Assembly: GCA_965198115.1 (NCBI GenBank)
Contig: OZ240241.1
Location: forward strand, 3,488,001 to 3,552,000
DNA from: Candidatus Latescibacterota bacterium
GTDB lineage: Bacteria > Latescibacterota > UBA2968
Length of the DNA stretch: 64,000 nt
Direction: 5' to 3'
The position numbers and the translations under genes were made by a program. This document shows positions 44,017 through 61,386 of this stretch, piece by piece. The notes under the pieces were generated by a model. It did not search any database, was not told where the DNA came from, and worked only from the letters and a program-made list of their open reading frames with translations. Each line of letters begins with the position of its first letter. Positions within the stretch are counted from its first letter, which is position 1.

Positions 44017-46144
44017 CTATTGAAAGAGTTTCACGGCCCTGATCTTGTTGTTCCAGTGGTCGCTGACGAGCAGGACATCGTCGCCGTAAATGCGGAGAGA
44101 ATACGGGTAGTTGAGCCTGGCGGCAGTGGCGGGACCGCCGTCGCCGGAGTCGCCGCCGTCGTCACTGCCGGCGATGGTGCGCAGGACCCGATCCGGGCCC
44201 ACGGCACGCACCTGGAAATTCGCGGTGTCCGCCAGGTAAATGGTCTCGCCGTCCCGCGATACCTCGACACCGTGTGGCGAGCCGAGTCTGGCTTCTTCCG
44301 CGGGCGTGCCGTCCGGGGAGTGACCCGACTCGCCCTTGCCGACTACCGTGGTCACGGATGACACCTGTCTCGGCGTCGACGCGCCGCACAACGTTGCTGG
44401 CCATATCCGGGAAGTAGAGGTTGCCCTCGCCGTCGAAGCGGAGGGACATGGGCCTGCCGATGCGGGCGCTGGTCGCCGGGCCGCCGTCGCCGGTCAGGCC
44501 CACCAGTCCGTTGCCGACGACGGTCATGATAATGCCGGTTCTGGCATCCACCTTGCGGATTCGATGGGCTTCGGCGTCGGCGATGTACACGTCGCCGCTT
44601 GGCCCGTGCTCGACAGCGGTCGGATAGATCACGTTGGCGCTGATCGCCGGACCCCCGTCGCCCTTGTCCCACGGGAAAGCGGCGCCCGCGAAGTTGTGGA
44701 TGATTCCGTCTGTGTCGATCCGGCGCACGTGGCTGTGACGCGTGTCCGCCACGATGACGGTGCCGTCCCGCCCGACCGCGACGTCCCCCGGGTTGCCGAG
44801 AAAGGCTAGCGCGGCCGGGCCGCCGTCGCCGCCATAGGCCCGCGCCCCCTCGCCGGCAACGGTGCGAATCACCCCGGTGTCGGCGTCGATGGCGCGGACT
44901 CGCTGGTTCCAGCAATCGGCGAAATAGACATCTCCATCCTCTGCGATGGAGATGCCGTAGGGCCCTCGCAGAAACGCCTGCGTCGCGGGTTCGCCGTCAT
45001 GCACGGAGGTGCCCCCCAGGGCGGTCGTCACAACGCCGGTCTTCCCGTCGTACCTGCGCAGGCGGCCGGAGGAGTCGCCCCAGAATACAGTGCCGTCGGA
45101 ATCTGCCCACAGCCCGGCCTCGACTGAGTTGATGCGGCTGTCCGGGCCGGGCAGGCCCTCATCGCCCCAACCCGCCTGACCATTGCCCGCCAGGGTGGAA
45201 ACCAGGCCGGTATTGGCATCCAGGCGGCGCAGACGAAAACCGTACTTCTCGCCGACGTACATGTTGTCCTCGGCGTCGAAGCACAGAGCATCGGGCATCA
45301 GGATGGCGGCCTCAGTGCCGGCCTCGCCGTCACCGCTGGAGGCGCGCTGGCCGTTCCCGAGGACGGTGCTGACGATCCCCGTCTTCATGTCGATCTTGCG
45401 GATGCGGTCGTTGGAATTATCACAGACGTAGAGATCCCCCTTCGAGTCGAAGGCCAGGTGCTCGGGGTGGTGAAAGCCCGCTTTTTCCTTCGGACCGCCG
45501 TCGCCGGAGTACCCGCCGAGGCTCAGCCACGGACCAGAGAACGGTCTGCTGTTGCCGTTCTCCAGGTCGTAGTGGCGCGCCTCGGCCCCGGCGAAGTGCT
45601 CGATGATGCCGGTCGTGGCATCGATGCGGCGGATGACGTTCGACCACTCGCAGGAAAGAAAGACATTACCGTCGTCGTCGACGGCAATGCCCGAGTCATT
45701 GTCGATCTCGCACTCGAGAGCGGGTCCGCCGTTTCCGCCCCAGCCGACTTTACCGGAGCCGGCGACTCGCGTGATGACGCCGGAGACTGCGTCGATGCGA
45801 CGCACCGCGTGGTTTCCGAGGTCGGTGAGGTAGAGATTGTCGACCCTGTCTTTGGTCAAGTCGTGGGGGTCGTCGAGGCGGGCGTCTTTGGCGGGCCCGC
45901 CGTCGCCACGATCGCCCGGCACGCCGTCACCGGCGAAGGCGTGCAGGATGCCATCGGTATCGATGCGCCAGATGCGGTGCCCCCACATGTCGAGGACGAT
46001 CAGGTCGCCATTGGCTATGCGGACGACTCCCTGGGGTGTGCCCGCCGGGGCGTCGCGAGCAGGTACGCCGTCCATGTAGCCGACTCCAGCGACTGTGATA
46101 ATGATGCCGGGCTCGAGCACGGCGAGCTGCTCTTTCAGGCTCAT
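44017..46144 (-). pseudogene. NHL-repeat beta-propeller protein, frameshift near 44355
   Basis: About 12 repeats of GDGGPA..A.L..P..(LV)..D..G.LY.AD..N.RIR.ID..TG.I.TVAG. The last repeats are in another frame. Confidence 0.85.
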
Positions 46145-50730: not shown

Positions 50731-51722
50731 CTATGCGATTCTCTTGGCCAGATCGACGCAACGATTGGAGTAGCCCCACTCGTTGTCGTACCAGCCGCAG
50801 ACCTGGACCATGTTACCCTGTACCACGTTCGTGGTCAGGCTGTCGAAGATGCAGGAGTAGGCATTACCTACGATGTCGGCAGAGACGATCGGGTCTTCGG
50901 TGTATTCCAGAATGCCCTTCAGATCCCCGTTGGCGTTGGCCTGGAAGGCAGTGTTGATCTCCTCGACCGTGGTCGACTTTTTCAACGTCGCGACGAATTC
51001 CGTAAACGAACCATCGGGCGTCGGAACACGGACGGCCATGCCGTCGAGCTTTCCGTTCAATTCGGGAATGACCTTGCCGACCGCGCTTGCGGCCCCGGTC
51101 GTGGTCGGAATCATCGACAGGGCCGCCGATCGGGCCCGACGAAGATCGGGGTGTGGCGCATCCAGAATCCGTTGGTCACCCGTGTAGGCGTGGGGATGGT
51201 CGTCATCAACCCCCGCTCTACACCGAACGCGTCGTTCAGCGTCTTGACCATCGGAGCGAGGCAGTTGGTCGTACAGGACGCGTTTGAGATCACGCGATCG
51301 TCGTCCGTCAACGTATCGTCGTTGATTCCCATCACCACCGTCGGGAGATCACCCTTCCCCGGCGCGGAAATGATCACGCGCTTTGCGCCGCCCTTCAGAT
51401 GTTGTGCGGCGCCTTCCTTGTCCGTGAAGAAGCCTGTCGCTTCGATCACGATGTCTGCGCCATCTTCGGACCAGGGAAGCTTGGAAGGATCGCGTTCCGA
51501 ATGGACCGTGAGCGTCCTGCCGTCGACGACGAGTGCGTGTTCTTTGTGCTCGACCTTACCCGGATACCGGCCGTGCGTGGAGTCGTATTTGAGCAGGTGG
51601 GCGAGTGTCGGTGCGTCTGTCAGATCGTTCACTGCGACGACATCCACACCACTTTGCGCCGCCGCCCTGAAAACCAGACGGCCTATACGACCGAATCCAT
51701 TGATCCCGATCCTGACTACCAT
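50731..51722 (-). CDS. gap: Glyceraldehyde-3-phosphate dehydrogenase, type I; apparent +2 frameshift near 51192
   Basis: GINGFGRIGR, SNASCTTNCLAP, IPTTTGAA, WYDNEWGYS. ATCCCCACG stands where ATCCACG would restore TTIHAYTGDQ. Confidence 0.95.
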
Positions 51723-53031: not shown

Positions 53032-53800
53032 CTATGGCTGACACGAAACGCCCGATGGCCCCGATCCAATGGCAATGCTGGCATCGTGTGGGCTGGCCAG
53101 GGCCACCACGTCAACCGACGCGGCCCCTGCCGCCATCAGGGCATCTGCACACGCATTCACGGTCGCGCCCGTCGTCACCACATCATCCACGAGCCAGATT
53201 CTTGCCCCGTTGACCGTCGGCCGCGACACGAACGCCCCCACCACGTTTTCGCGTCTCGCCTCACGATCGAGTGCCGTCTGCGACGGCGTGGCTCGAGTCC
53301 GCTTCAAATCCTTCTCAGCAAGGCGTCCGAAACCTGCTCGGACGAGCGTACGAGCGATCAACGCACTCTGATTGTAGCCCCGTTCGCGTTCTCGGCTGCT
53401 ATGGAGCGGAACGGGGATCAGAAATCGGTCCGGATCGGGGGCGGACATTCAAAGATGCGAGGCGCTTTTGTAGCCCAGTGCCGAGCACACGAGCAACGGA
53501 TGTCCGGCCACGGTATTTCAAGTCGTGCAGAAGCCGCTGAATGTCCTCAGAAAACGAACTCGCCACGATCAGCCGTGAGAAGCGAAACGTCTTGTCCGCA
53601 CAATTGTAACAATCCGCAACACCGTTAACGCCGGGACAGCTGCATCGCGGACACCCCTGCTCGGCGATCAGATTCAGTCCCGGTAAGCAGGAATCGCAGA
53701 CCAGAAGGGGAGTTCGATCGATTCCTGCGCCACACAAGTGGCAGGCGGGTGGAAACAGAAACGCATCCAGCGCCTCGAAAATCGCCCCAAAACAGGAAAA
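53032..53800 (-). pseudogene. comF: ComF-family protein, frameshift near 53450
   Basis: LFPPAC..C zinc ribbons, LKY.G, PVPLH..R.RERGYNQS, LVDDVVTTGAT. Start uncertain. Confidence 0.88.
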
Positions 53801-53863
53801 AACCGCGACGTGATCTGGCTCACTCACCTTTTGCACACGGGAATGCATGTTTAGTCCAGGAAA

Positions 53864-54292
53864 ATGGCACGGAAAATACTCGTCATAGATGATGAACCCG
53901 AATTCCGGGTGACCCTCTCGGATGTCCTGGAGCGGGAAGGCTACACAGTCGATAATCCCCGCTATCTCGCGTCCTCGGTCGGCATCGGGCTAACGGGGGG
54001 CTACGATCTGATCACCCTCGACCTCAAAATGCCCGAGGTCGACGGGCTCGACGTGGCGCGTCTCTACGCTCGAATGCTGCCGAAAACGCCGATCCTCGTA
54101 ATCTCTGGCTATCTGGACGATGGCGCCGTGTCCACGCTCGAAGAAATCGGGATCAACCATCTTCTGGACAAGCCTGCCGGTGTTGGAGACCTCATCAAAG
54201 CGGTCGACAACGCACTCGCCACGCCGTTGGCCGATCGACCCACGCGAGCCGCCCACCGCAACGGCAACGGTCGTGCACATCGCAGAATCTGA
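53864..54292 (+). CDS. Single-domain response regulator
   Basis: ILVIDDE, DLITLDLKMPEVDG, ISG, KP. Confidence 0.9.
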   Translation: MARKILVIDDEPEFRVTLSDVLEREGYTVDNPRYLASSVGIGLTGGYDLITLDLKMPEVDGLDVARLYARMLPKTPILVISGYLDDGAVSTLEEIGINHLLDKPAGVGDLIKAVDNALATPLADRPTRAAHRNGNGRAHRRI

Positions 54293-54434: not shown

Positions 54435-56390
54435 ATGAAAAACACGCGCGCCGTCATCTTCGACCTCGACGGCACTCTCTTCGATCTCGCACCTCTCGTA
54501 CAGGCCGCCCGCAACCGAGTGGCCGCCCTCCTGCACGAAGCGGGATTCTTCGCCTCCGCAGGCTACGCCCTCCGCCGCATCAACGAGCTCGAACGTCGTC
54601 ACGGCCCCTACTACTCCTCCTCGCCCTACTATTTTGCCTTTTTCGACATCGCCAAATCGATCTGTCGTGAAAAGCCAAAGCAATCGGCCGATTTTCTCAG
54701 GTCACACGGGCACAAAGACGGGGACCCGATCGAGCAATTCGTCGCGGTGCTCGAGCACGCCTACAACGCAGAGAACGTCGAAAGCATTCTCCCCTATCCC
54801 GACGCACTCCAGACCCTCGAGGAAGTAAGGGCTGCCGGCTGCCGGACCTTTCTCGTCTCGATCGGACGCCCGGGCCGCCAGCAGAACAAGATCGATCGTC
54901 TGGGCATCGCCCCTTTTTTCGACCGCATCGTCAACGAAGGCCCACCCTCTCACACCTACTGGTTCAGCGAGATCCTCAGCGACAATGGCTACAGCCCCGA
55001 CGAAGTGGTCGTCGTAGGAGATCGTGCTCAAGACGAAATCCGGGCAGGGAACCGCCTGGACCTCACGACCGTCTGGCTCAGACGGGGACGCTACGGCGAG
55101 GTCGAGCCGGGTGAAGGCGACCACCCCGACTACACGGTCGGGTTCCTGTCACAGGTCTCGACGCTGATCCACATGGCTCGGGCAGGCAAAGACCGCGAGC
55201 ATTTCAGGACGGTCGTCATCGGCGGCGGAACGGGTTTGCCGACCGTGCTCCGGGGTATCCGCACGTTCGATGAAAAACCGACCGCGATCGTGGCGGTCAC
55301 CGACACGGGCGCATCATCGGGCCGGATTCGGTGGAATCTGGGCGTTCAACCACCGGGCGACATCCGCAACGCATTGACCGCGTTGGCCGACCCCGACCTC
55401 GTTTCCCCCGGCCTGTTCCGGGTCTTTCAACACCGATTCCCGAACGACGAGGCCGAAGCAGGTATCTTCAAGAACGACCACATCGGGAACTTTCTCGTCG
55501 CGGCACTGACCCAGCAGCTCGGCAACTTCCAACACGCCATCCAGACCGCATCGGAGATGCTTCACGTGCGGGGAACCATCCTTCCCGCCAGTGTCGACAA
55601 CGTCGACATCTGTGCGGAACTCGAGAGCGGAGAGCATCGATATACCGAGTGGATGGTCAGAAAACCGGGAAAGCCGGCAATCCAAAAGGCTTATCTGGTT
55701 TCGAACGCGGAGATGCTATCTGAATTGGATCGGAAGAACGGGACGATCAAACGCGTGGAAGACCCTGTCACCGGGCAGGTCGAAGTCCACGGAAGGAAAG
55801 GGGCGACCTTTTCCCCCTCCCGCCGAACGCTTCAGGCTCCGCAGGAGGCGGTGACCGCAATCGAGGATGCCGATCTCGTCATCCTCGGACCGGGGAGTCT
55901 CTACACCAGCGTCATTACCAACCTCCTCGTTCCCGGGATTGGCAAAGCGCTTCTCTCGCGCTCGAACGGCAAAACGTGCTACGTCTGCAACATCACGACT
56001 CAGCCCGGGCAGTCCGACGGTTTCGCTGCTTCCGACCACGCCAAAGCCATCGCCAGGCATCTCAAGGAGGCAGCGGTTCGTAATGTCTTCGACTGCGTGC
56101 TCGTCCAGGACACGACCGTGTTCGAGTCCAAGAAAGGCAATGCCTGGACGCCCTTGCTCCGGCGCTACAAGAAAGACGACAAGGTGCTCGTCGAATCCGA
56201 TGAAGAAGAGTTGGATCGCATCGTGGACTGGACGAAAGCCGACTTCGTCGAGGAGTTCAGTCCCGATGTCATGGGCCGAGGCGTGGGAGACTTCATCAGC
56301 CACGATTCCAACAAGGTGGCGGATGCCCTTTGCCGTGTCTACTGCGGGCTTCCCATTCCCGACTATTGGGGTCTCCAGAACGGGGAATGA
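54435..56390 (+). CDS. Fusion of a HAD-superfamily domain and a YvcK/GlmR (CofD-like, UPF0052) domain
   Basis: N-terminal FDLDGTL, VVGDR..DE..AGN..L.TVW. C-terminal VVIGGGTGL, GASSG, PPGDIRN.L.AL, HIGN, GPGSLYTSVITNLL, YVCN..TQPG, SHD. One uninterrupted 651-aa frame. Confidence 0.88.
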   Translation: MKNTRAVIFDLDGTLFDLAPLVQAARNRVAALLHEAGFFASAGYALRRINELERRHGPYYSSSPYYFAFFDIAKSICREKPKQSADFLRSHGHKDGDPIEQFVAVLEHAYNAENVESILPYPDALQTLEEVRAAGCRTFLVSIGRPGRQQNKIDRLGIAPFFDRIVNEGPPSHTYWFSEILSDNGYSPDEVVVVGDRAQDEIRAGNRLDLTTVWLRRGRYGEVEPGEGDHPDYTVGFLSQVSTLIHMARAGKDREHFRTVVIGGGTGLPTVLRGIRTFDEKPTAIVAVTDTGASSGRIRWNLGVQPPGDIRNALTALADPDLVSPGLFRVFQHRFPNDEAEAGIFKNDHIGNFLVAALTQQLGNFQHAIQTASEMLHVRGTILPASVDNVDICAELESGEHRYTEWMVRKPGKPAIQKAYLVSNAEMLSELDRKNGTIKRVEDPVTGQVEVHGRKGATFSPSRRTLQAPQEAVTAIEDADLVILGPGSLYTSVITNLLVPGIGKALLSRSNGKTCYVCNITTQPGQSDGFAASDHAKAIARHLKEAAVRNVFDCVLVQDTTVFESKKGNAWTPLLRRYKKDDKVLVESDEEELDRIVDWTKADFVEEFSPDVMGRGVGDFISHDSNKVADALCRVYCGLPIPDYWGLQNGE

Positions 56391-57082
56391 CCCAGACCAC
56401 AACCGGCGGGGTCCTCTTCGACCTCGACGACACGCTCTTCGATTGCACCGGCCGCCTCACAGGGCCCGCCAGACGCAGAGCAGCCCGGATCCTCGCCCGG
56501 GGGGGCGAAAACCTCAGCGAGACGAAAGCCTTCCAGCTTCAGACAGAATGGTCTGAGGATATCGGGTCGACCGAAGCCATTCGGGAGATCGCCAGGACCC
56601 ACGCTTGCCAGGCGACGGTCCTGAACGAGGCGCTCGCCGCCTACAACGAGCCGCACGTACCGAACATCCAGCCGTTTCCTGACGCCCTTCCTACGATCGA
56701 GGCACTACAAAGGGCAGCTATCGCAGTGTCGTTGGTCACCTCGGGATCGCCTCCTCGACAGTGTGCCAAGATCGAGCGACTCGGTCTCGGGAATGTCTTC
56801 TCGGCGGACAAAGGCAACCTTTGCCTTCACGATCCAACGGAAGACGGGATCGACAAGGGCCCTCACCTGCGACAAGCAGCCCGGTGGATGGGATTGCCCC
56901 ATGACCGCATCGCGGTCGTGGGCGACAAGCTCGATAGCGAAATCGAAGCCGGAAACCGACTGGGCATGATGACCGTCCACGTCAGACACGGACGTCAGGG
57001 CCGGGCGACGCCCTGCGACGCCAGCCAGAAACCCGATTTCGAGATCGACACCTTGGCCGAGCTGACCGCACTCCTGTTGTAG
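56387..57082 (+). CDS. HAD-superfamily hydrolase
   Basis: FDLDDTL, LVTSG, DKG, VVGDKLDSEIEAGN. ATGA overlap with the upstream fusion. Confidence 0.88.
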   Translation: MTQTTTGGVLFDLDDTLFDCTGRLTGPARRRAARILARGGENLSETKAFQLQTEWSEDIGSTEAIREIARTHACQATVLNEALAAYNEPHVPNIQPFPDALPTIEALQRAAIAVSLVTSGSPPRQCAKIERLGLGNVFSADKGNLCLHDPTEDGIDKGPHLRQAARWMGLPHDRIAVVGDKLDSEIEAGNRLGMMTVHVRHGRQGRATPCDASQKPDFEIDTLAELTALLL

Positions 57083-57098: not shown

Positions 57099-57884
57099 TC
57101 ACGGCTCCCTCTTCGATATCTCGACTCGATCACCCCGGCTGAGTGAAAGGGTCTCTGCCGCACGCCCACCGTTGATCGATATTTCTACCGTATCCTGACT
57201 GCCCATCAGCGCCAAGACCCCACCCGTCTCCACATCCGTGTAGGTTCGACTCATTCCCCGGATCCTCGTCGATCCCACGGACACTTCCACATCGCGTTCG
57301 GCCGGCAGGTCCGCTCGAGACAGGTTCGTGATGACATTCCCGAACCGATCGATATGGACGATCTGCCCCCGAACCCTCCCCTTGCCTCGCTCGATATCCC
57401 ACACATTCAGTCGGACGGGATCCTCGACGAGATCGCCAAACCGGGCGGGCGGCACCCCCAACGCCAGATGCGCGGCCGCCGGCGCGAACACGTCTCGTCC
57501 GTGGAAGGTCGAACTCACACGGGGCCGCACGAGCCCCATGTCGGTGATCTCCCTGACTTCGCGAACCTTCACGCCGTCAAAGACAGGAGTCAGCACCCCA
57601 TTATCTGGCGCCACGTAGGTTCCCGCCTCGGTGTCTACCACAATCGCACGCCGTGCGGAGCCCACGCCGGGATCGACGACGATGAGGTGAATCGTATCTT
57701 CCGGGAACAGGCCCAGGAGGGTTGACACCTGGTAGGATCCGCCGACCACATCCTGAGGCTCGATTTCGTGCGTCACGTCCAGAATCTGAACATCCGGTGC
57801 GTGGCTCAACACCACGCCTTTGACGGCCGCCACGTAGGTGTCACGCGTTCCGAAGTCCGTCGTCAATGTCAGGAATCGCCTCAC
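57099..57884 (-). CDS. SAM hydroxide adenosyltransferase / chlorinase-fluorinase family (DUF62)
   Basis: LTLTTDFG..D.YV, VVDPGVGS.RR, APDNG, SSTFHGRDVFAP, IDRFGN.ITN. Confidence 0.92.
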   Translation of the reverse strand: MRRFLTLTTDFGTRDTYVAAVKGVVLSHAPDVQILDVTHEIEPQDVVGGSYQVSTLLGLFPEDTIHLIVVDPGVGSARRAIVVDTEAGTYVAPDNGVLTPVFDGVKVREVREITDMGLVRPRVSSTFHGRDVFAPAAAHLALGVPPARFGDLVEDPVRLNVWDIERGKGRVRGQIVHIDRFGNVITNLSRADLPAERDVEVSVGSTRIRGMSRTYTDVETGGVLALMGSQDTVEISINGGRAAETLSLSRGDRVEISKREP

Positions 57885-57989
57885 TCCACCTCCTCGTAAC
57901 CCGTCCAAAACGTGACAGGCTCTCACCGGGATATCACATTCCGTGCGGGGCACCGCCCGATCGCCCACTTCATTCCACACAACACAAGT

Positions 57990-58620
57990 CATGACCTCCG
58001 GCAAAGCCGGAGGCTTGAAAACTTGTGAACCGCTCAAAGCGGTTGGAAACCAAGCGCCACCTAAAGGTGGCGATTACCTGAAAATGTTGAGCTGGTCGAG
58101 ACGCCGGTCCTCCCGCTCCTGGTTCTGGATATACTCCCGAACCGTCTGTTCATCCTTGCCAACGGTGGAGACCCAGTAGCCTCTTGCCCAGAAATGCTGC
58201 CCGGTGAAGTTCGACCTGCGTCCCAGATAGTTCCGAGCAATGTGAATCGCACTCTTTCCTTTGATGAACCCTACCGTCTGAGCTACTGAGTGCTTCGGCG
58301 GGATCGAAATCAGCATGTGCACATGGTCGGATCGCAGGTGACCCTCTTCCACACGGCATTCCTTCTGTGCGGCCAGATCCCGAATCACCTCGCCCAGATA
58401 GCGACGAATTTCACCATACAACACTTTTCTACGATACTTCCGAACCCAAACAACGTCATACTTGCACTCCCATACCGTGTGACGTAGACTCCTTACGTTG
58501 TTCATTAGAGAGCCTTCCTTCCGTGTGCTTTGAGCGGTCCACGGCAAGGGAGGCTCTTACATATTTCTGGAACTGTCAAACTCTGGGAGTCTCCCCGGCA
58601 GAGCCGGGGGCTTACCAAGG
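57990..58620 (-). mobile_element. tnpA: IS200-like element, tnpA only (58074..58505)
   Basis: HUH motif DHVHML, KYRRK, IKGKSA, FWARGY, YIQNQ. Subterminal hairpins cctccggcaaagccggagg and ccccggcagagccgggg. Exact ends uncertain. Confidence 0.9.
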
Positions 58621-59310: not shown

Positions 59311-60572
59311 GTACTCCTGTTCTCAAATACGGTGACGTATTCTAAGCAGACTTTGCCAAGGGCGTATCGTAGAACCTGAGTTTGTCGATCATCTCCGCGA
59401 GATCTGTTCGTGTGAACTTCCATTTGAAGGGTGTGGCGATACGTCCGTAGCGTTCCTGAAAACCGAGGATTCTTGCCTCAAGCTCTTCGAGCGATGCAAA
59501 TTCGATAGGTGTCAGAGCCTTGCGTTTGAGGATCGAGAAGTAGATCTCGATCTGATTGAGCCAGCTTGCGTGGATCGGAAGGTGAACGGGGTGGATGTTT
59601 GGCCACTTCCCCTGGATACGGTCGATGCATGTTTGCCCTCGGTGCGAGGAGCCATTATCCACGATGAGGTAGACTTTCTTTGCCGAGCAATAGGGTTTCC
59701 GGCTCATGATCAGGCTCAGGAGCCGGTTGAAGGGCTCGATACCCGAAGAAGACTCACAGAGACCGAAGATTCGACCATTGTGCACGTCGAGAGCAGCCAG
59801 ATAGGCCAGGGCTCCTTTCCGCTCGTATTCGTGTTTCAACGCGTGCCGCTCTGTTCGAGGCTGGCGGTAGGGTAACGTGCTTGCGAGCTCGTGCTTGAAT
59901 ACTGGTCTTTTCGTCGGCAGAAAGTACATATTCCCTCGGCCCTAAAGGCTTTCCTTGCCATTGGCGGTGATACAGATCAAGGACTCTACCTGCTTTGGTT
60001 TGGAAGTCCGGGTCCCGTGGGAAAATCCAGGAGCGATGATACCAAGGACGAATCGCGTCCTCGTTCAACCAGCGCCAGACAGTGGCGCCGCTGATCTTGG
60101 CAACGAAGCCCCTTTGCACTGCCTCGGCGGCAATCTCGGAACAGCTGAACCGCGAGAGCGGTATCCCGCTCTCGCTCGGTAGTTCACACGCCAGCGCCTT
60201 GATCTGAACGACCACCTGAGGGGGGAAAACCGGGCGGGCGCCCGGGACGAGATCTATCTTCGAGTCCCGAAAGACGCTCTTCGAAAAAGCGCTTACGCCA
60301 TTTGCTTACGATCGGACGCGGGACATCCAACCGTTGGGCGATAATCTTGTTGGATAATCCCTCGGCGGCGAGAAGCACGATTTTCGATCGGATCACTTGA
60401 TAATACGATAACGTATATTGTCCAGCCATTCGCTCGAGGTCGACCCGTTCCTTCTCAGACAGTAGCACCACATAAGGCGAACGTCTTGGCATTGTTCTCC
60501 TCCTTTTGAAGGAGAACATAAGCTACAAATAATGTTCAGAACATACGTAATAATATTTATGAAACCATGCAC
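59311..60572 (-). mobile_element. IS630-family element copy 3
   Basis: Near-identical to 6910-8171; flanks TTA/TAA. Confidence 0.92.
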
Positions 60573-60691: not shown

Positions 60692-61386
60692 CTACAACAG
60701 CCCCACTTCTTTGAAGCTCGTGAATCGATCGGCTGCAAGAATCACGTGGTCGACGACCTCGATACCCATAATGTCGCCGGCCTGCACGAGCCGACGCGTG
60801 AGTTCGATGTCCTGACGGCTGGGGGTGACGTCACCGGAGGGATGGTTGTGAGCCAGAATCACGCTGGCTGCCGACGATCCAATCGCGGGAGCGAACACCT
60901 CACGCGGGTGGACGAGCGAGCCGTTCAGGCTCCCGACCGATACTTCCTCGCGGGCGATCACCTGGTTCCGAGCGTTTAAAAACAGTGCCATGAAGTGTTC
61001 CTTTCTCCGATCCCGAATATCGGCGATCAGAGCGACAACATCCTGGGGCCCGCGTATGCAAGGCGCCAGACCCATGCCTTTATCGAGACCACGACGAGCC
61101 AGCTCGAACGCCGCGAGCACCGAAGCGGTCTTCGCGCGTCCGATCCCTTTCACGCCGGTCAGCGTTCCGAAGTCCATGGTCAGCAGGTCCGCCGGTTCGT
61201 GTTGACGTAGGATCCGGCCGGCCACATCGAGCACACTGCGTCCTTCGTATCCCGTTCGTAGAAGGACGGCCAGCAATTCCTCGTCGCGCAGGCCCTCCGA
61301 CCCACGCGTTCGAGTTTCTCACGCGGAAGGTCCACGTCGGCGACGCCCTCGATCTTTTCTCTTCCGTTGCGTAGTCGGTCGGTCAC
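60692..61386 (-). CDS. radC: RadC (JAB domain) protein; 1-nt frameshift near 61300
   Basis: LPREKL, ELLAVLLRTG, GIG.AK, VHPREVF, LAHNHPSGD..PS..D, DHVI. The shift is in a G run. Confidence 0.9.

What the first reader, a model, noticed from the sequence alone, without database searches (positions are those of the whole stretch)
54435..57082. Intact HAD-YvcK/GlmR fusion coupled to a second HAD gene near the glycolysis operon
Seen: one 651-aa frame joins a ~245-aa HAD domain to a full YvcK/CofD-like domain, and its stop overlaps (ATGA) a paralogous stand-alone HAD. The YvcK DDGGSSG motif reads DTGASSG and there is a ~45-aa insert. The fused HAD has no obvious motif-III Lys (EGPPSH) whereas the partner has one (DKG). 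Both genes are lesion-free while many neighbours are broken. Known: YvcK/GlmR binds UDP-GlcNAc and links gluconeogenic growth to cell-wall precursors, usually as a stand-alone gene with rapZ and whiA; CofD is a phosphotransferase. Neither rapZ nor whiA is in this window. Inference: either a transferase-plus-phosphatase pathway for an unknown sugar-phosphate product, or a sensor in which a weakly catalytic HAD domain gates YvcK and pairs with the active HAD. I do not recall this architecture being characterised but cannot confirm novelty.
Basis: partly seen in the sequence, partly recalled or inferred. Interest (0 to 1): 0.72.

Follow-up and report, generated by a model that had tools for sequence, protein, structure and literature searches.

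The report
YvcK-HAD pair in GlmM's place
A real fusion of a phosphatase-type (HAD) domain to the cell-wall protein YvcK/GlmR, paired with a second HAD gene, marks a whole bacterial order in which the standard enzyme GlmM was not found, and it likely supplies that missing step of UDP-GlcNAc synthesis by a predicted, untested two-step route.

Summary
In detail: one intact 651-aa HAD–YvcK frame overlaps (ATGA) a 231-aa paralogous HAD. It is the genome's only YvcK. All 53 genomes of the order carry a YvcK; the pair was intact or nearly so in 40 of 40 examined. A 557-aa form occurs in 114 of 121 genomes of the anammox class and in some Nanoarchaeota. No paper describing it was found (8 searches).

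The main result is the link to GlmM. No GlmM-type mutase was found in the order (0 of 53; 103 of 108 other genomes of the phylum match). In 301 Nanoarchaeota, yvcK (72) and glmM (56) never co-occur, and yvcK–HAD takes glmM's place beside glmU/glmS.

Best reading (0.55): the pair converts glucosamine-6-P to glucosamine-1-P. YvcK would form the 1,6-bisphosphate and the Lys-bearing HAD would remove the 6-phosphate. No chemistry was shown. Against it: 38 of 96 anammox-class genomes keep glmM too, a phosphoglucomutase could moonlight, and GlmR has published uridylyltransferase activity. The scan noted the GlmM-slot idea before on archaeal DNA (e1-9972146).

The parts
54435..56390 (+). HAD-YvcK/GlmR fusion gene, 651 aa (P0001); the genome's only PF01933 match
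   Evidence: AlphaFold2 model mean pLDDT 91, pTM 0.91
54435..55169 (+). Fused HAD-IA domain (res 1-245): motif I D10-x-D12, motif II S141, motif IV G195-D196...E201; about 25-30 extra residues in the cap, including an invariant HGPYYSSSP stretch
   Evidence: motif definitions recalled
54951..54953 (+). His173, at the position of the HAD motif-III lysine
   Evidence: no Lys in 77 of 77 order fusions; H173 at least 90% conserved in 48 aligned
55200..56354 (+). YvcK/GlmR (UPF0052) domain, res 256-640; keeps the equivalents of B. subtilis T14, D38, N218, Y265 and L. monocytogenes N198 (T266, D290, N519, Y578, N496)
   Evidence: Z 41.1, rmsd 1.7 A over 310 residues to 2hzb
55302..55322 (+). DTGASSG motif; the second Asp of GlmR D38/D39 is Thr291
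55704..55823 (+). Order-specific 40-aa insert in the YvcK domain (bounds approximate)
56298..56300 (+). Ser622, at the position of GlmR Arg301 (UDP-GlcNAc binding, proposed feedback site)
   Evidence: S or G in 81 of 81 order sequences; PMC5482804 passages
56387..57082 (+). Stand-alone paralogous HAD-IA, 231 aa (P0002), with all four motifs including Lys157; starts in an ATGA overlap with the fusion's stop

Best explanation
The fusion is this lineage's only YvcK/GlmR, it sits in genomes where no GlmM-type mutase was found, and together with the partner HAD it likely carries out the GlmM step of UDP-GlcNAc synthesis (glucosamine-6-P to glucosamine-1-P) between GlmS and GlmU, by a predicted two-step route in which the YvcK domain would phosphorylate carbon 1 to give the 1,6-bisphosphate and the lysine-bearing HAD would remove the 6-phosphate. 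Shown: the genes, their motifs, their distribution and the gene-order swap with glmM in archaea. Inferred: the net reaction. Predicted and weakest: the bisphosphate intermediate, the phosphoryl donor (probably a nucleotide, by analogy with CofD chemistry, recalled), whether the sugar is already N-acetylated, and the role of the lysine-less fused HAD (a slow phosphatase or a sugar-phosphate binding and control module). The logic would parallel kinase plus bisphosphatase in ADP-heptose synthesis (HldE/GmhB, recalled). In bacteria that have YvcK and GlmM but no such HAD, the same YvcK product would be the activator that GlmM needs.
For: (1) Own genome: glmS beside an alternative glmU (TIGR03991 340 bits, over cut-off), and murA, are present. 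The single alpha-phosphohexomutase is a long PGM-type protein far under both GlmM cut-offs (81 and 120 bits). (2) Own phylum: PF01933 in 53 of 53 genomes of the order and 3 of 108 others; TIGR01455-like mutases (E<=1e-40) in 0 of 53 and 103 of 108. Of 10 GEGNGG-type mutases tested from the other genomes, 8 pass the TIGR03990 GlmM cut-off. (3) Nanoarchaeota sample, 301 genomes: yvcK in 72, glmM in 56, overlap 0 where 13.4 is expected (Fisher p 5e-8, not corrected for kinship). (4) Same slot: of 26 glmM loci fetched (of 56), 25 have a nucleotidyltransferase and 22 have glmS within 2.5 kb. Of 72 yvcK loci, 36 have a HAD fused or within 400 bp, 31 a nucleotidyltransferase and 7 glmS within 2.5 kb. 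The yvcK-linked HADs score 83-292 bits with a profile of the window's HAD subfamily. (5) The swap happened more than once: the label changes 4 times on a glmS tree (3 forced by starred branches), and L371 (glmS-HAD-yvcK-HAD-glmU) has a glmS sister to that of L422 (glmS-HAD-glmM-glmU), support 99 (FastTree). (6) 19 of 30 genomes with a yvcK-HAD-nucleotidyltransferase string have no PF02878 match at all. (7) Triple fusions YvcK-GlmU-like-HAD exist (L135, L290), which fits consecutive steps better than two uridylyltransferases. (8) Anammox class: 58 of 96 genomes with the fusion lack glmM; the other mutases sampled there are PMM/PGM type. (9) Literature: glmR pgcA synthetic lethality in B. subtilis is relieved by GlmM but not GlmS or GlmU overproduction (PMC6797236). 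GlcNAc-1-P falls rather than rises in a Listeria glmR mutant, and only the two GlmU reactions were assayed in the section read (PMC10128056). No source of glucosamine-1,6-bisphosphate is known (PMC9426568).
Against: No activity was measured. The contrast in the own phylum is one clade, so one evolutionary event. In this order the pair is not next to glmS or glmU. 38 of 96 anammox-class genomes have both the fusion and glmM, and in 6 of 6 such loci fetched they are neighbours. 36 anammox-class genomes have only the fusion, with neither partner HAD nor glmM, and the fused HAD there lacked the lysine in the loci read (35 of 37 class sequences); a strict two-step route then needs another phosphatase or residual activity. 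36 of 72 archaeal yvcK loci have no adjacent HAD, and L287 and L401 hold yvcK in the glm cluster without this HAD type. G170 and G174 lack the fusion, and both mutases found in each are PMM/PGM type, so some genomes may manage with PMM/PGM alone. B. subtilis PgcA has secondary GlmM activity, so the PGM of G000 could moonlight; glmM could not be deleted in B. subtilis, which has glmR. Purified GlmR proteins made UDP-GlcNAc from GlcNAc-1-P and UTP. GlcNAc feeding and GlmS overproduction also rescue glmR mutants, which the authors read as a GlmS defect (PMC6171935). The archaeal and anammox genomes are draft assemblies of untold completeness, so absences are soft. glmS in G000 is itself split over two frames, not checked against reads.
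Confidence: 0.55

Rival explanations
1. Same net step, different chemistry: the YvcK domain is itself a mutase of a new fold, or one HAD is the mutase and YvcK primes it; the second HAD is accessory. This shares the GlmM-replacement claim, and its probability is additional to the best explanation.
For: yvcK sits in the glm cluster without this HAD type in L287 and L401, and has no adjacent HAD in 36 of 72 archaeal loci. 36 anammox-class genomes have the fusion only. HAD-fold mutases exist; beta-phosphoglucomutase is among the distant matches.
Against: Many of the archaeal partner HADs are only about 150-165 aa and lack most of the cap, which argues against a HAD mutase (inference). glmM stays essential in B. 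subtilis despite glmR.
Confidence: 0.15
2. Regulatory reading: YvcK stimulates GlmS or a promiscuous phosphoglucomutase, or makes only catalytic amounts of activator. The HAD domains replace RapZ as the sugar-phosphate sensor or brake, and the loss of Arg301 removes UDP-GlcNAc feedback.
For: RapZ was found in 0 of 53 order genomes and 0 of 61 anammox-class genomes over cut-off, against 29 of 76 loci of unfused yvcK. The fused HAD lacks the lysine but is strongly conserved. GlmR-GlmS model (PMC6171935); PgcA moonlighting; G000 has one PGM.
Against: It does not explain why yvcK and glmM exclude each other in 301 archaeal genomes, nor the 19 of 30 operon-bearing genomes with no phosphohexomutase match. 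The GlmR-GlmS interaction was not seen for Listeria proteins.
Confidence: 0.17
3. Accessory uridylyltransferase as published for Firmicute GlmR; the HAD hydrolyses PPi or UMP to pull or clean up the reaction.
For: In vitro activity of three GlmR proteins, and loss of function in D40/D41/N198 and D38/D39 mutants (PMC10128056, PMC13046274). D290 and N496 are kept, and S. epidermidis YvcK has DN at the DD site, so D-to-T need not kill activity. Weak matches of the HAD to pyrimidine nucleotidase and PpaX models.
Against: A GlmU is already present in G000 and beside or fused to the archaeal yvcK genes. GlcNAc-1-P falls in the Listeria mutant. Native S. aureus GlmR does not cover the loss of NagU and GlmU (10.64898/2026.06.23.733835). 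It does not explain the exclusion with glmM.
Confidence: 0.08
4. A synthase-plus-phosphatase pathway for an unrelated sugar product or compatible solute, linked to glycolysis.
For: Conserved position beside pfk-gap-pgk-tpi in the order; the stand-alone HAD follows an alpha-glucan phosphorylase in 5 of 5 anammox loci where it lies apart from the fusion.
Against: The genes are on the opposite strand from the glycolytic operon; unfused yvcK also lies near gap/pgk in 5-6 of 76 loci; the glm-cluster context and exclusion with glmM point elsewhere.
Confidence: 0.05

Closest known systems
YvcK/GlmR/CuvA (UPF0052, TIGR01826; B. halodurans 2hzb/2o2z; B. subtilis and L. monocytogenes GlmR)
   Same: Over the family cut-off; Z 41, rmsd 1.7 A to 2hzb; T14, D38, N218, Y265 and N198 equivalents kept; sole copy in the genome; tied to UDP-GlcNAc supply.
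   Different: N-terminal HAD fusion plus a coupled HAD paralog; second Asp is Thr; Arg301 is Ser; 40-aa insert; no rapZ or whiA found; host lacks a GlmM-type mutase. HAD-fused YvcK domains fall on one side of a branch (support 99, FastTree; two fragments scored as unfused and one triple fusion lie among them).
Phosphoglucosamine mutase GlmM (TIGR01455, TIGR03990)
   Same: Same inferred net reaction and the same place beside glmS and glmU in archaeal clusters.
   Different: Unrelated fold and sequence. GlmM works through a phosphoserine; the pair is predicted to use a free bisphosphate and a separate phosphatase.
CofD/FbiA 2-phospho-L-lactate transferase (TIGR01819; 3c3e, 6uw3)
   Same: Same fold (Z 21-23, rmsd 3.6-3.9 A, about 16% identity); the precedent for phosphoryl-group transfer from a nucleotide donor to a hydroxyl (chemistry recalled).
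   Different: 32 bits against a cut-off of 257; much weaker structural match than YvcK; no F420 context.
HAD-IA phosphatases of the TIGR02253 group (PH1655 2hoq; N-acylneuraminate-9-phosphatase NANP; YfnB)
   Same: Closest HAD models and structures; motifs I, II and IV kept in both HADs, motif-III Lys in the partner; NANP acts on an amino-sugar phosphate.
   Different: Both HADs are under the TIGR02253 cut-off (100 and 83 vs 170 bits); the fused copy has His for Lys; substrate untested.
Kinase plus bisphosphatase sugar activation (HldE/HddA + GmhB in heptose synthesis; recalled, no call)
   Same: The predicted logic: add a 1-phosphate, remove the distal phosphate with a HAD, then nucleotidylate.
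   Different: Different kinase fold, HAD subclass and sugar; an analogy only.

Membership tests
YvcK/GlmR (TIGR01826) | Score over the curated cut-off | tested here: met
   243 bits vs 196
YvcK/GlmR (TIGR01826) | UPF0052 fold | tested here: met
   Predicted model: Z 41.1, rmsd 1.7 A, 310 residues to 2hzb
YvcK/GlmR (TIGR01826) | Proposed catalytic D38/D39/N198 | tested here: inconclusive
   D290 and N496 kept, T291 for the second Asp; the papers read mutated both Asp together; 2ppv has DN
YvcK/GlmR (TIGR01826) | UDP-GlcNAc-binding residues T14, N218, Y265, R301 | tested here: not met
   Three kept; R301 is Ser622 (S/G in 81 of 81 order sequences). R301 mutants still support growth, so this bears on feedback binding rather than family membership
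YvcK/GlmR (TIGR01826) | rapZ-yvcK-whiA gene context | tested here: not met
   rapZ 0 of 53 in the order, whiA none in G000; not universal anyway (29 and 21 of 76 unfused loci)
YvcK/GlmR (TIGR01826) | UDP-GlcNAc binding, uridylyltransferase activity, rescue of a glmR mutant | not testable with these tools
   needs bench work
CofD/FbiA (TIGR01819) | Score over cut-off | tested here: not met
   32 bits vs 257
GAK system CofD-like (TIGR04357) | Score over cut-off | tested here: not met
   97 bits vs 340
GlmM (alpha-phosphohexomutase) | Homology to the GlmM models or PF02878 | tested here: not met
   No such match for P0001 or P0002. It may work like GlmM but is not one
GlmM (alpha-phosphohexomutase) | Converts glucosamine-6-P to glucosamine-1-P | not testable with these tools
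   inferred from distribution and gene order only
Active HAD-IA phosphatase: partner P0002 | Motifs I (DxD), II (S/T), III (K), IV (GD...D/E); definitions recalled | tested here: met
   D12, D14, T118, K157, G179-D180 invariant in 29 aligned
Active HAD-IA phosphatase: fused domain | Motif-III lysine | tested here: not met
   His173; no Lys in 77 of 77; motifs I, II and IV kept
TIGR02253 HAD family | Score over cut-off | tested here: not met
   100 and 83 bits vs 170

The most novel reading that the evidence does not exclude
YvcK/GlmR proteins are sugar-6-phosphate 1-phosphotransferases that make glucosamine-1,6-bisphosphate. With a dedicated HAD they form a second, mutase-free route to UDP-GlcNAc, used by this Latescibacterota-like order, many anammox-class bacteria and many Nanoarchaeota. 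Without the HAD, as in Bacillus, Listeria and mycobacteria, they supply the missing activator of GlmM, which would explain why glmR is needed on gluconeogenic carbon sources.
Probability: 0.35. Interest if true: 0.92.

Novelty: new variant of a known kind. Interest (0 to 1): 0.78.

Why it matters
YvcK/GlmR is widespread and needed for cell-wall integrity and virulence in several Gram-positive bacteria, yet its biochemistry is unsettled: GlmS activator, uridylyltransferase, or something else. The source of the bisphosphate that activates GlmM is also open (PMC6797236, PMC9426568). This subfamily gives a natural experiment, because it occurs where GlmM was not found and takes glmM's place in gene clusters. 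That turns a vague 'metabolic checkpoint' role into one specific reaction, testable with two purified proteins or one complementation. It would also fill a gap in the cell-envelope precursor pathway of anammox-class bacteria and small archaea.

Tried and rejected
Complex prediction of the fusion with the partner HAD gave no verdict (score 0.00, mark 0.32); it is not used for or against binding. The profile search of protein representatives never ran, so the breadth of the fusion outside three lineages is not mapped. TIGR03990 in Nanoarchaeota did not separate GlmM from PMM/PGM (0 of 301 over cut-off) and was replaced by TIGR01455. The idea that the fusion is the missing main uridylyltransferase was dropped: canonical glmU is absent but an alternative glmU is present. 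The PF01704 search was uninformative because no control rang. Assembly artefact at the junction was rejected. A decaying fused HAD was rejected. An obligate fusion-partner pair was rejected as a general rule. The HAD tree (quick IQ-TREE) left the order among fused and stand-alone clades unresolved, with long branches, so no claim is made on when the duplication happened. A planned tree of archaeal HADs failed on a script error after printing its table and was not rerun. No RNA holder was listed. A sequence look-up among earlier scan findings returned nothing. Paper searches found no description of a HAD-YvcK fusion or of YvcK replacing GlmM; the library lacks most subscription journals and no supplements were read.
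Full report
Observation. The window holds one open frame at 54435-56390 (651 aa) whose stop overlaps the start of a 231-aa frame at 56387-57082. The first has a HAD domain (res 5-235) and a CofD/UPF0052 domain (260-593); it passes the YvcK model TIGR01826 (243 vs 196 bits) and fails the CofD and GAK models. The second is a HAD, 36% identical to the fused one. Contigs of two runs from one sample match the stretch letter for letter across the junction. About 50 full-length relatives at 61-85% identity share the architecture; source names among them say Candidatus Latescibacteria or Gemmatimonadetes, so I call the host a Latescibacterota-like order. An AlphaFold2 model is confident (pLDDT 91, pTM 0.91) and matches B. 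halodurans YvcK at Z 41, rmsd 1.7 A, CofD/FbiA at Z 21-23 and HAD-IA enzymes at Z 15-16. The insert is 40 aa. The pair faces away from comF-pfk-gap-pgk-tpi-secG.

Residues. I mapped B. halodurans numbering from the profile alignment and took residue roles from passages of PMC5482804, PMC10128056 and PMC13046274. T14, D38, N218, Y265 and Listeria N198 are kept. The second Asp is Thr, Ser or Asn in 81 of 81 order sequences, Ser or Cys in 37 of 37 anammox-class fusions, and Asp in 170 of 188 unfused YvcKs. Arg301 is Ser or Gly in 81 of 81 order sequences and Arg in 36 of 37 anammox-class ones (sequences are related, not independent). The motif-III lysine (motif definitions recalled) is missing in 77 of 77 order fusions, where His173 stands, and in 35 of 37 anammox-class fusions. 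It is present in 39 of 39 order partners, invariant in an 18-row alignment of stand-alone HADs from both lineages, and present in 5 of 5 archaeal fusions and 22 of 30 archaeal stand-alone HADs (8 not parsed). Across 18 order loci the fused HAD is 68% identical, YvcK 70% and the partner 55%.

Distribution. This is the only PF01933 match in G000. PF01933 is in 53 of 53 genomes of the order and 3 of 108 other genomes of the phylum; of those three, one is an ordinary YvcK, one a CofD-like::GT2 fusion and one a weak partial match. The partner HAD follows the fusion in 40 of 40 order genomes whose loci I read, of 53; one fusion is frameshifted and one partner is cut by a contig end. A 557-aa form at 31-38% identity occurs, whole or in part, in 114 of 121 genomes of the class holding Brocadiaceae; 66 of the 121 have the stand-alone paralog. 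It also occurs in 4 of 301 Nanoarchaeota. RapZ was found in 0 of 53 order genomes and 0 of 61 anammox-class genomes over cut-off; whiA was not found in G000. RapZ and WhiA lie beside 29 and 21 of 76 unfused yvcK loci. HAD-fused YvcK domains fall on one side of a branch with support 99 (FastTree, 124 rows after thinning).

The link to GlmM. G000 has glmS next to an alternative glmU, has murA, and lacks canonical glmU. It has one phosphohexomutase, a long PGM-type protein scoring 81 and 120 bits against GlmM cut-offs of 448 and 439. In the phylum, TIGR01455-like mutases at E<=1e-40 occur in 0 of 53 order genomes and 103 of 108 others. None passes that model's cut-off, but 8 of 10 of the GEGNGG-type copies tested pass TIGR03990; the second copy is PMM/PGM type. 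In 301 Nanoarchaeota, yvcK is in 72 and glmM in 56 (48 over cut-off), with no overlap where 13.4 is expected. The p value of 5e-8 ignores kinship. One genome of that sample, G528, is unpublished; it has neither gene and enters only the denominator. I read all 72 yvcK loci and 26 of the 56 glmM loci. glmM loci have a nucleotidyltransferase in 25 and glmS in 22 of 26. yvcK loci have a HAD fused or within 400 bp in 36, a nucleotidyltransferase in 31 and glmS in 7 of 72. Typical strings are glmS-glmM-glmU against glmS-yvcK-HAD-glmU. On a glmS tree of 32 rows the label changes 4 times (3 forced by starred branches); on a nucleotidyltransferase tree of 48 rows, 3 times (2 forced); L371 and L422 have sister glmS genes with yvcK-HAD or glmM in the same slot. 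Of 30 genomes with a yvcK-HAD-nucleotidyltransferase string, 19 have no PF02878 match. Triple fusions YvcK-GlmU-like-HAD occur (L135, L290). In the anammox class, 58 of 96 fusion genomes lack glmM and 38 have it.

Literature. Seen: PMC10128056 (passages, Results part 1 of 3, section 7); passages only of PMC13046274, PMC5482804, PMC6797236, PMC6171935 and PMC9426568; one passage of 10.64898/2026.06.23.733835; other papers as search listings only. No supplements were read; those of PMC10128056 (Fig. S6) could bear on which activities were assayed. In B. subtilis, glmR pgcA lethality is relieved by GlmM but not GlmS or GlmU overproduction, and the physiological activator of GlmM is called unresolved. 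In Listeria, GlcNAc-1-P falls in the glmR mutant while fructose-6-P is unchanged, and glucosamine phosphates could not be detected; the section read assayed only the two GlmU reactions. Native S. aureus GlmR does not cover loss of other uridylyltransferases. These fit a role at or before the GlmM step; the authors' GlmS-activator model fits them too. Eight searches found no description of the fusion or of YvcK replacing GlmM.

Mechanism. Shown: genes, motifs, distribution, gene order. Inferred: the pair supplies glucosamine-1-P (about 0.7 for the net step). Predicted: YvcK phosphorylates carbon 1 of the 6-phosphate and the lysine-bearing HAD removes the 6-phosphate (0.55), rather than a single-protein mutase (0.15). 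The short, nearly capless archaeal HADs (about 150-165 aa) favour a phosphatase over a HAD mutase, by inference. The lysine-less fused HAD would be a slow enzyme or a binding module. Donor and acetylation state are unknown.

Against. The own-phylum contrast is one clade, and there the pair is far from glmS and glmU. 38 anammox-class genomes keep both systems, side by side in 6 of 6 such loci fetched. 36 have neither partner HAD nor glmM. Half of the archaeal yvcK loci have no adjacent HAD. G170 and G174 lack the fusion and show only PMM/PGM-type mutases. PgcA moonlighting shows that a PGM can do some of this step, and glmM could not be deleted in B. subtilis. Purified GlmRs have uridylyltransferase activity. 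Most archaeal and anammox genomes are drafts. glmS in G000 is split over two frames. Rivals: regulatory module replacing RapZ (0.17), accessory uridylyltransferase with a clean-up HAD (0.08), unrelated product (0.05).

Earlier scan notes. I wrote down the GlmM idea before finding e1-9972146, which reports a YvcK-plus-phosphatase pair in GlmM's slot in one archaeon and warns about assembly breaks. It agrees but is not independent proof. Notes on more distant YvcK-like, HAD and nucleotidyltransferase cassettes prompted the look at sugar activation; I did not test them.

Verdict. A real, conserved and apparently undescribed HAD-coupled subfamily of YvcK/GlmR: a member of that family by score and fold, a variant by architecture, residues and context, and probably a functional stand-in for GlmM. 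New variant of a known kind; interest 0.78.

Noticed in passing
window 50731-51722 (-): gap is split over two frames near 51190; contigs of X1 and X2 carry the same letters, so it is not a consensus slip relative to those runs (one sample). A 38% identical paralog lies at G000:C1:4463653-4464666.
   Followed up: partly
window 53032-53848 (-): comF (double zinc ribbon plus PRTase) is split over two frames; the contigs agree with the window.
   Followed up: partly
G000:C1:5985242-5988479 (L365): glmS is split into 482- and 212-aa frames directly upstream of an intact alternative glmU; not checked against reads.
   Followed up: partly
window 44683: Contigs of X1 and X2 have one more base than the window here, inside a long repeat-rich gene (44162-46144, -); a likely assembly slip or strain variant.
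   Followed up: no
53 genomes of the order: Both of the roughly 450-aa mutases common in the rest of the phylum (GlmM-type and PMM/PGM-type) were not found, so the route to mannose-1-P is unclear as well.
   Followed up: partly
L237-L241 (anammox class): Where the stand-alone HAD lies apart from the fusion it directly follows an alpha-glucan phosphorylase (5 of 5 loci fetched), overlapping its end in L237.
   Followed up: partly
L331-L334, L336, L342, L345, L422, L424: 9 of 26 archaeal glmM clusters carry a different HAD type (D[ML]DG motif, 26-66 bits with the local profile) between or beside glmS, glmM and glmU.
   Followed up: no
L135:6043-8817, L290:5508-8294, L291:5848-7470, L367, L403: Other arrangements of the same parts: YvcK-nucleotidyltransferase-HAD, YvcK-HAD, short HAD-YvcK, and yvcK followed by a nucleotidyltransferase-plus-HAD fusion.
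   Followed up: partly
L129:2687-4696 (G089): A distant CofD-like domain fused to a GT2 domain next to a second GT2, in the same phylum.
   Followed up: no
G000:C1:534628-535964 (L253): A frameshifted archaeal-GlmU-like nucleotidyltransferase (137 bits, under cut-off) upstream of a probable GDP-mannose dehydratase, named by eye.
   Followed up: no
window 57099-57950 (-), 53864-54292 (+), 60692-61276 (-): A SAM hydroxide adenosyltransferase converges on the pair in 18 of 19 order loci plus the window; a lone response-regulator gene precedes the fusion in some; a radC-like gene (named by eye) follows in most.
   Followed up: partly
window 58074-58547 and 59342-60519 (-): Transposase-like frames, judged by eye from the translation; very high contig depth near 58000 suggests a multicopy element.
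   Followed up: no
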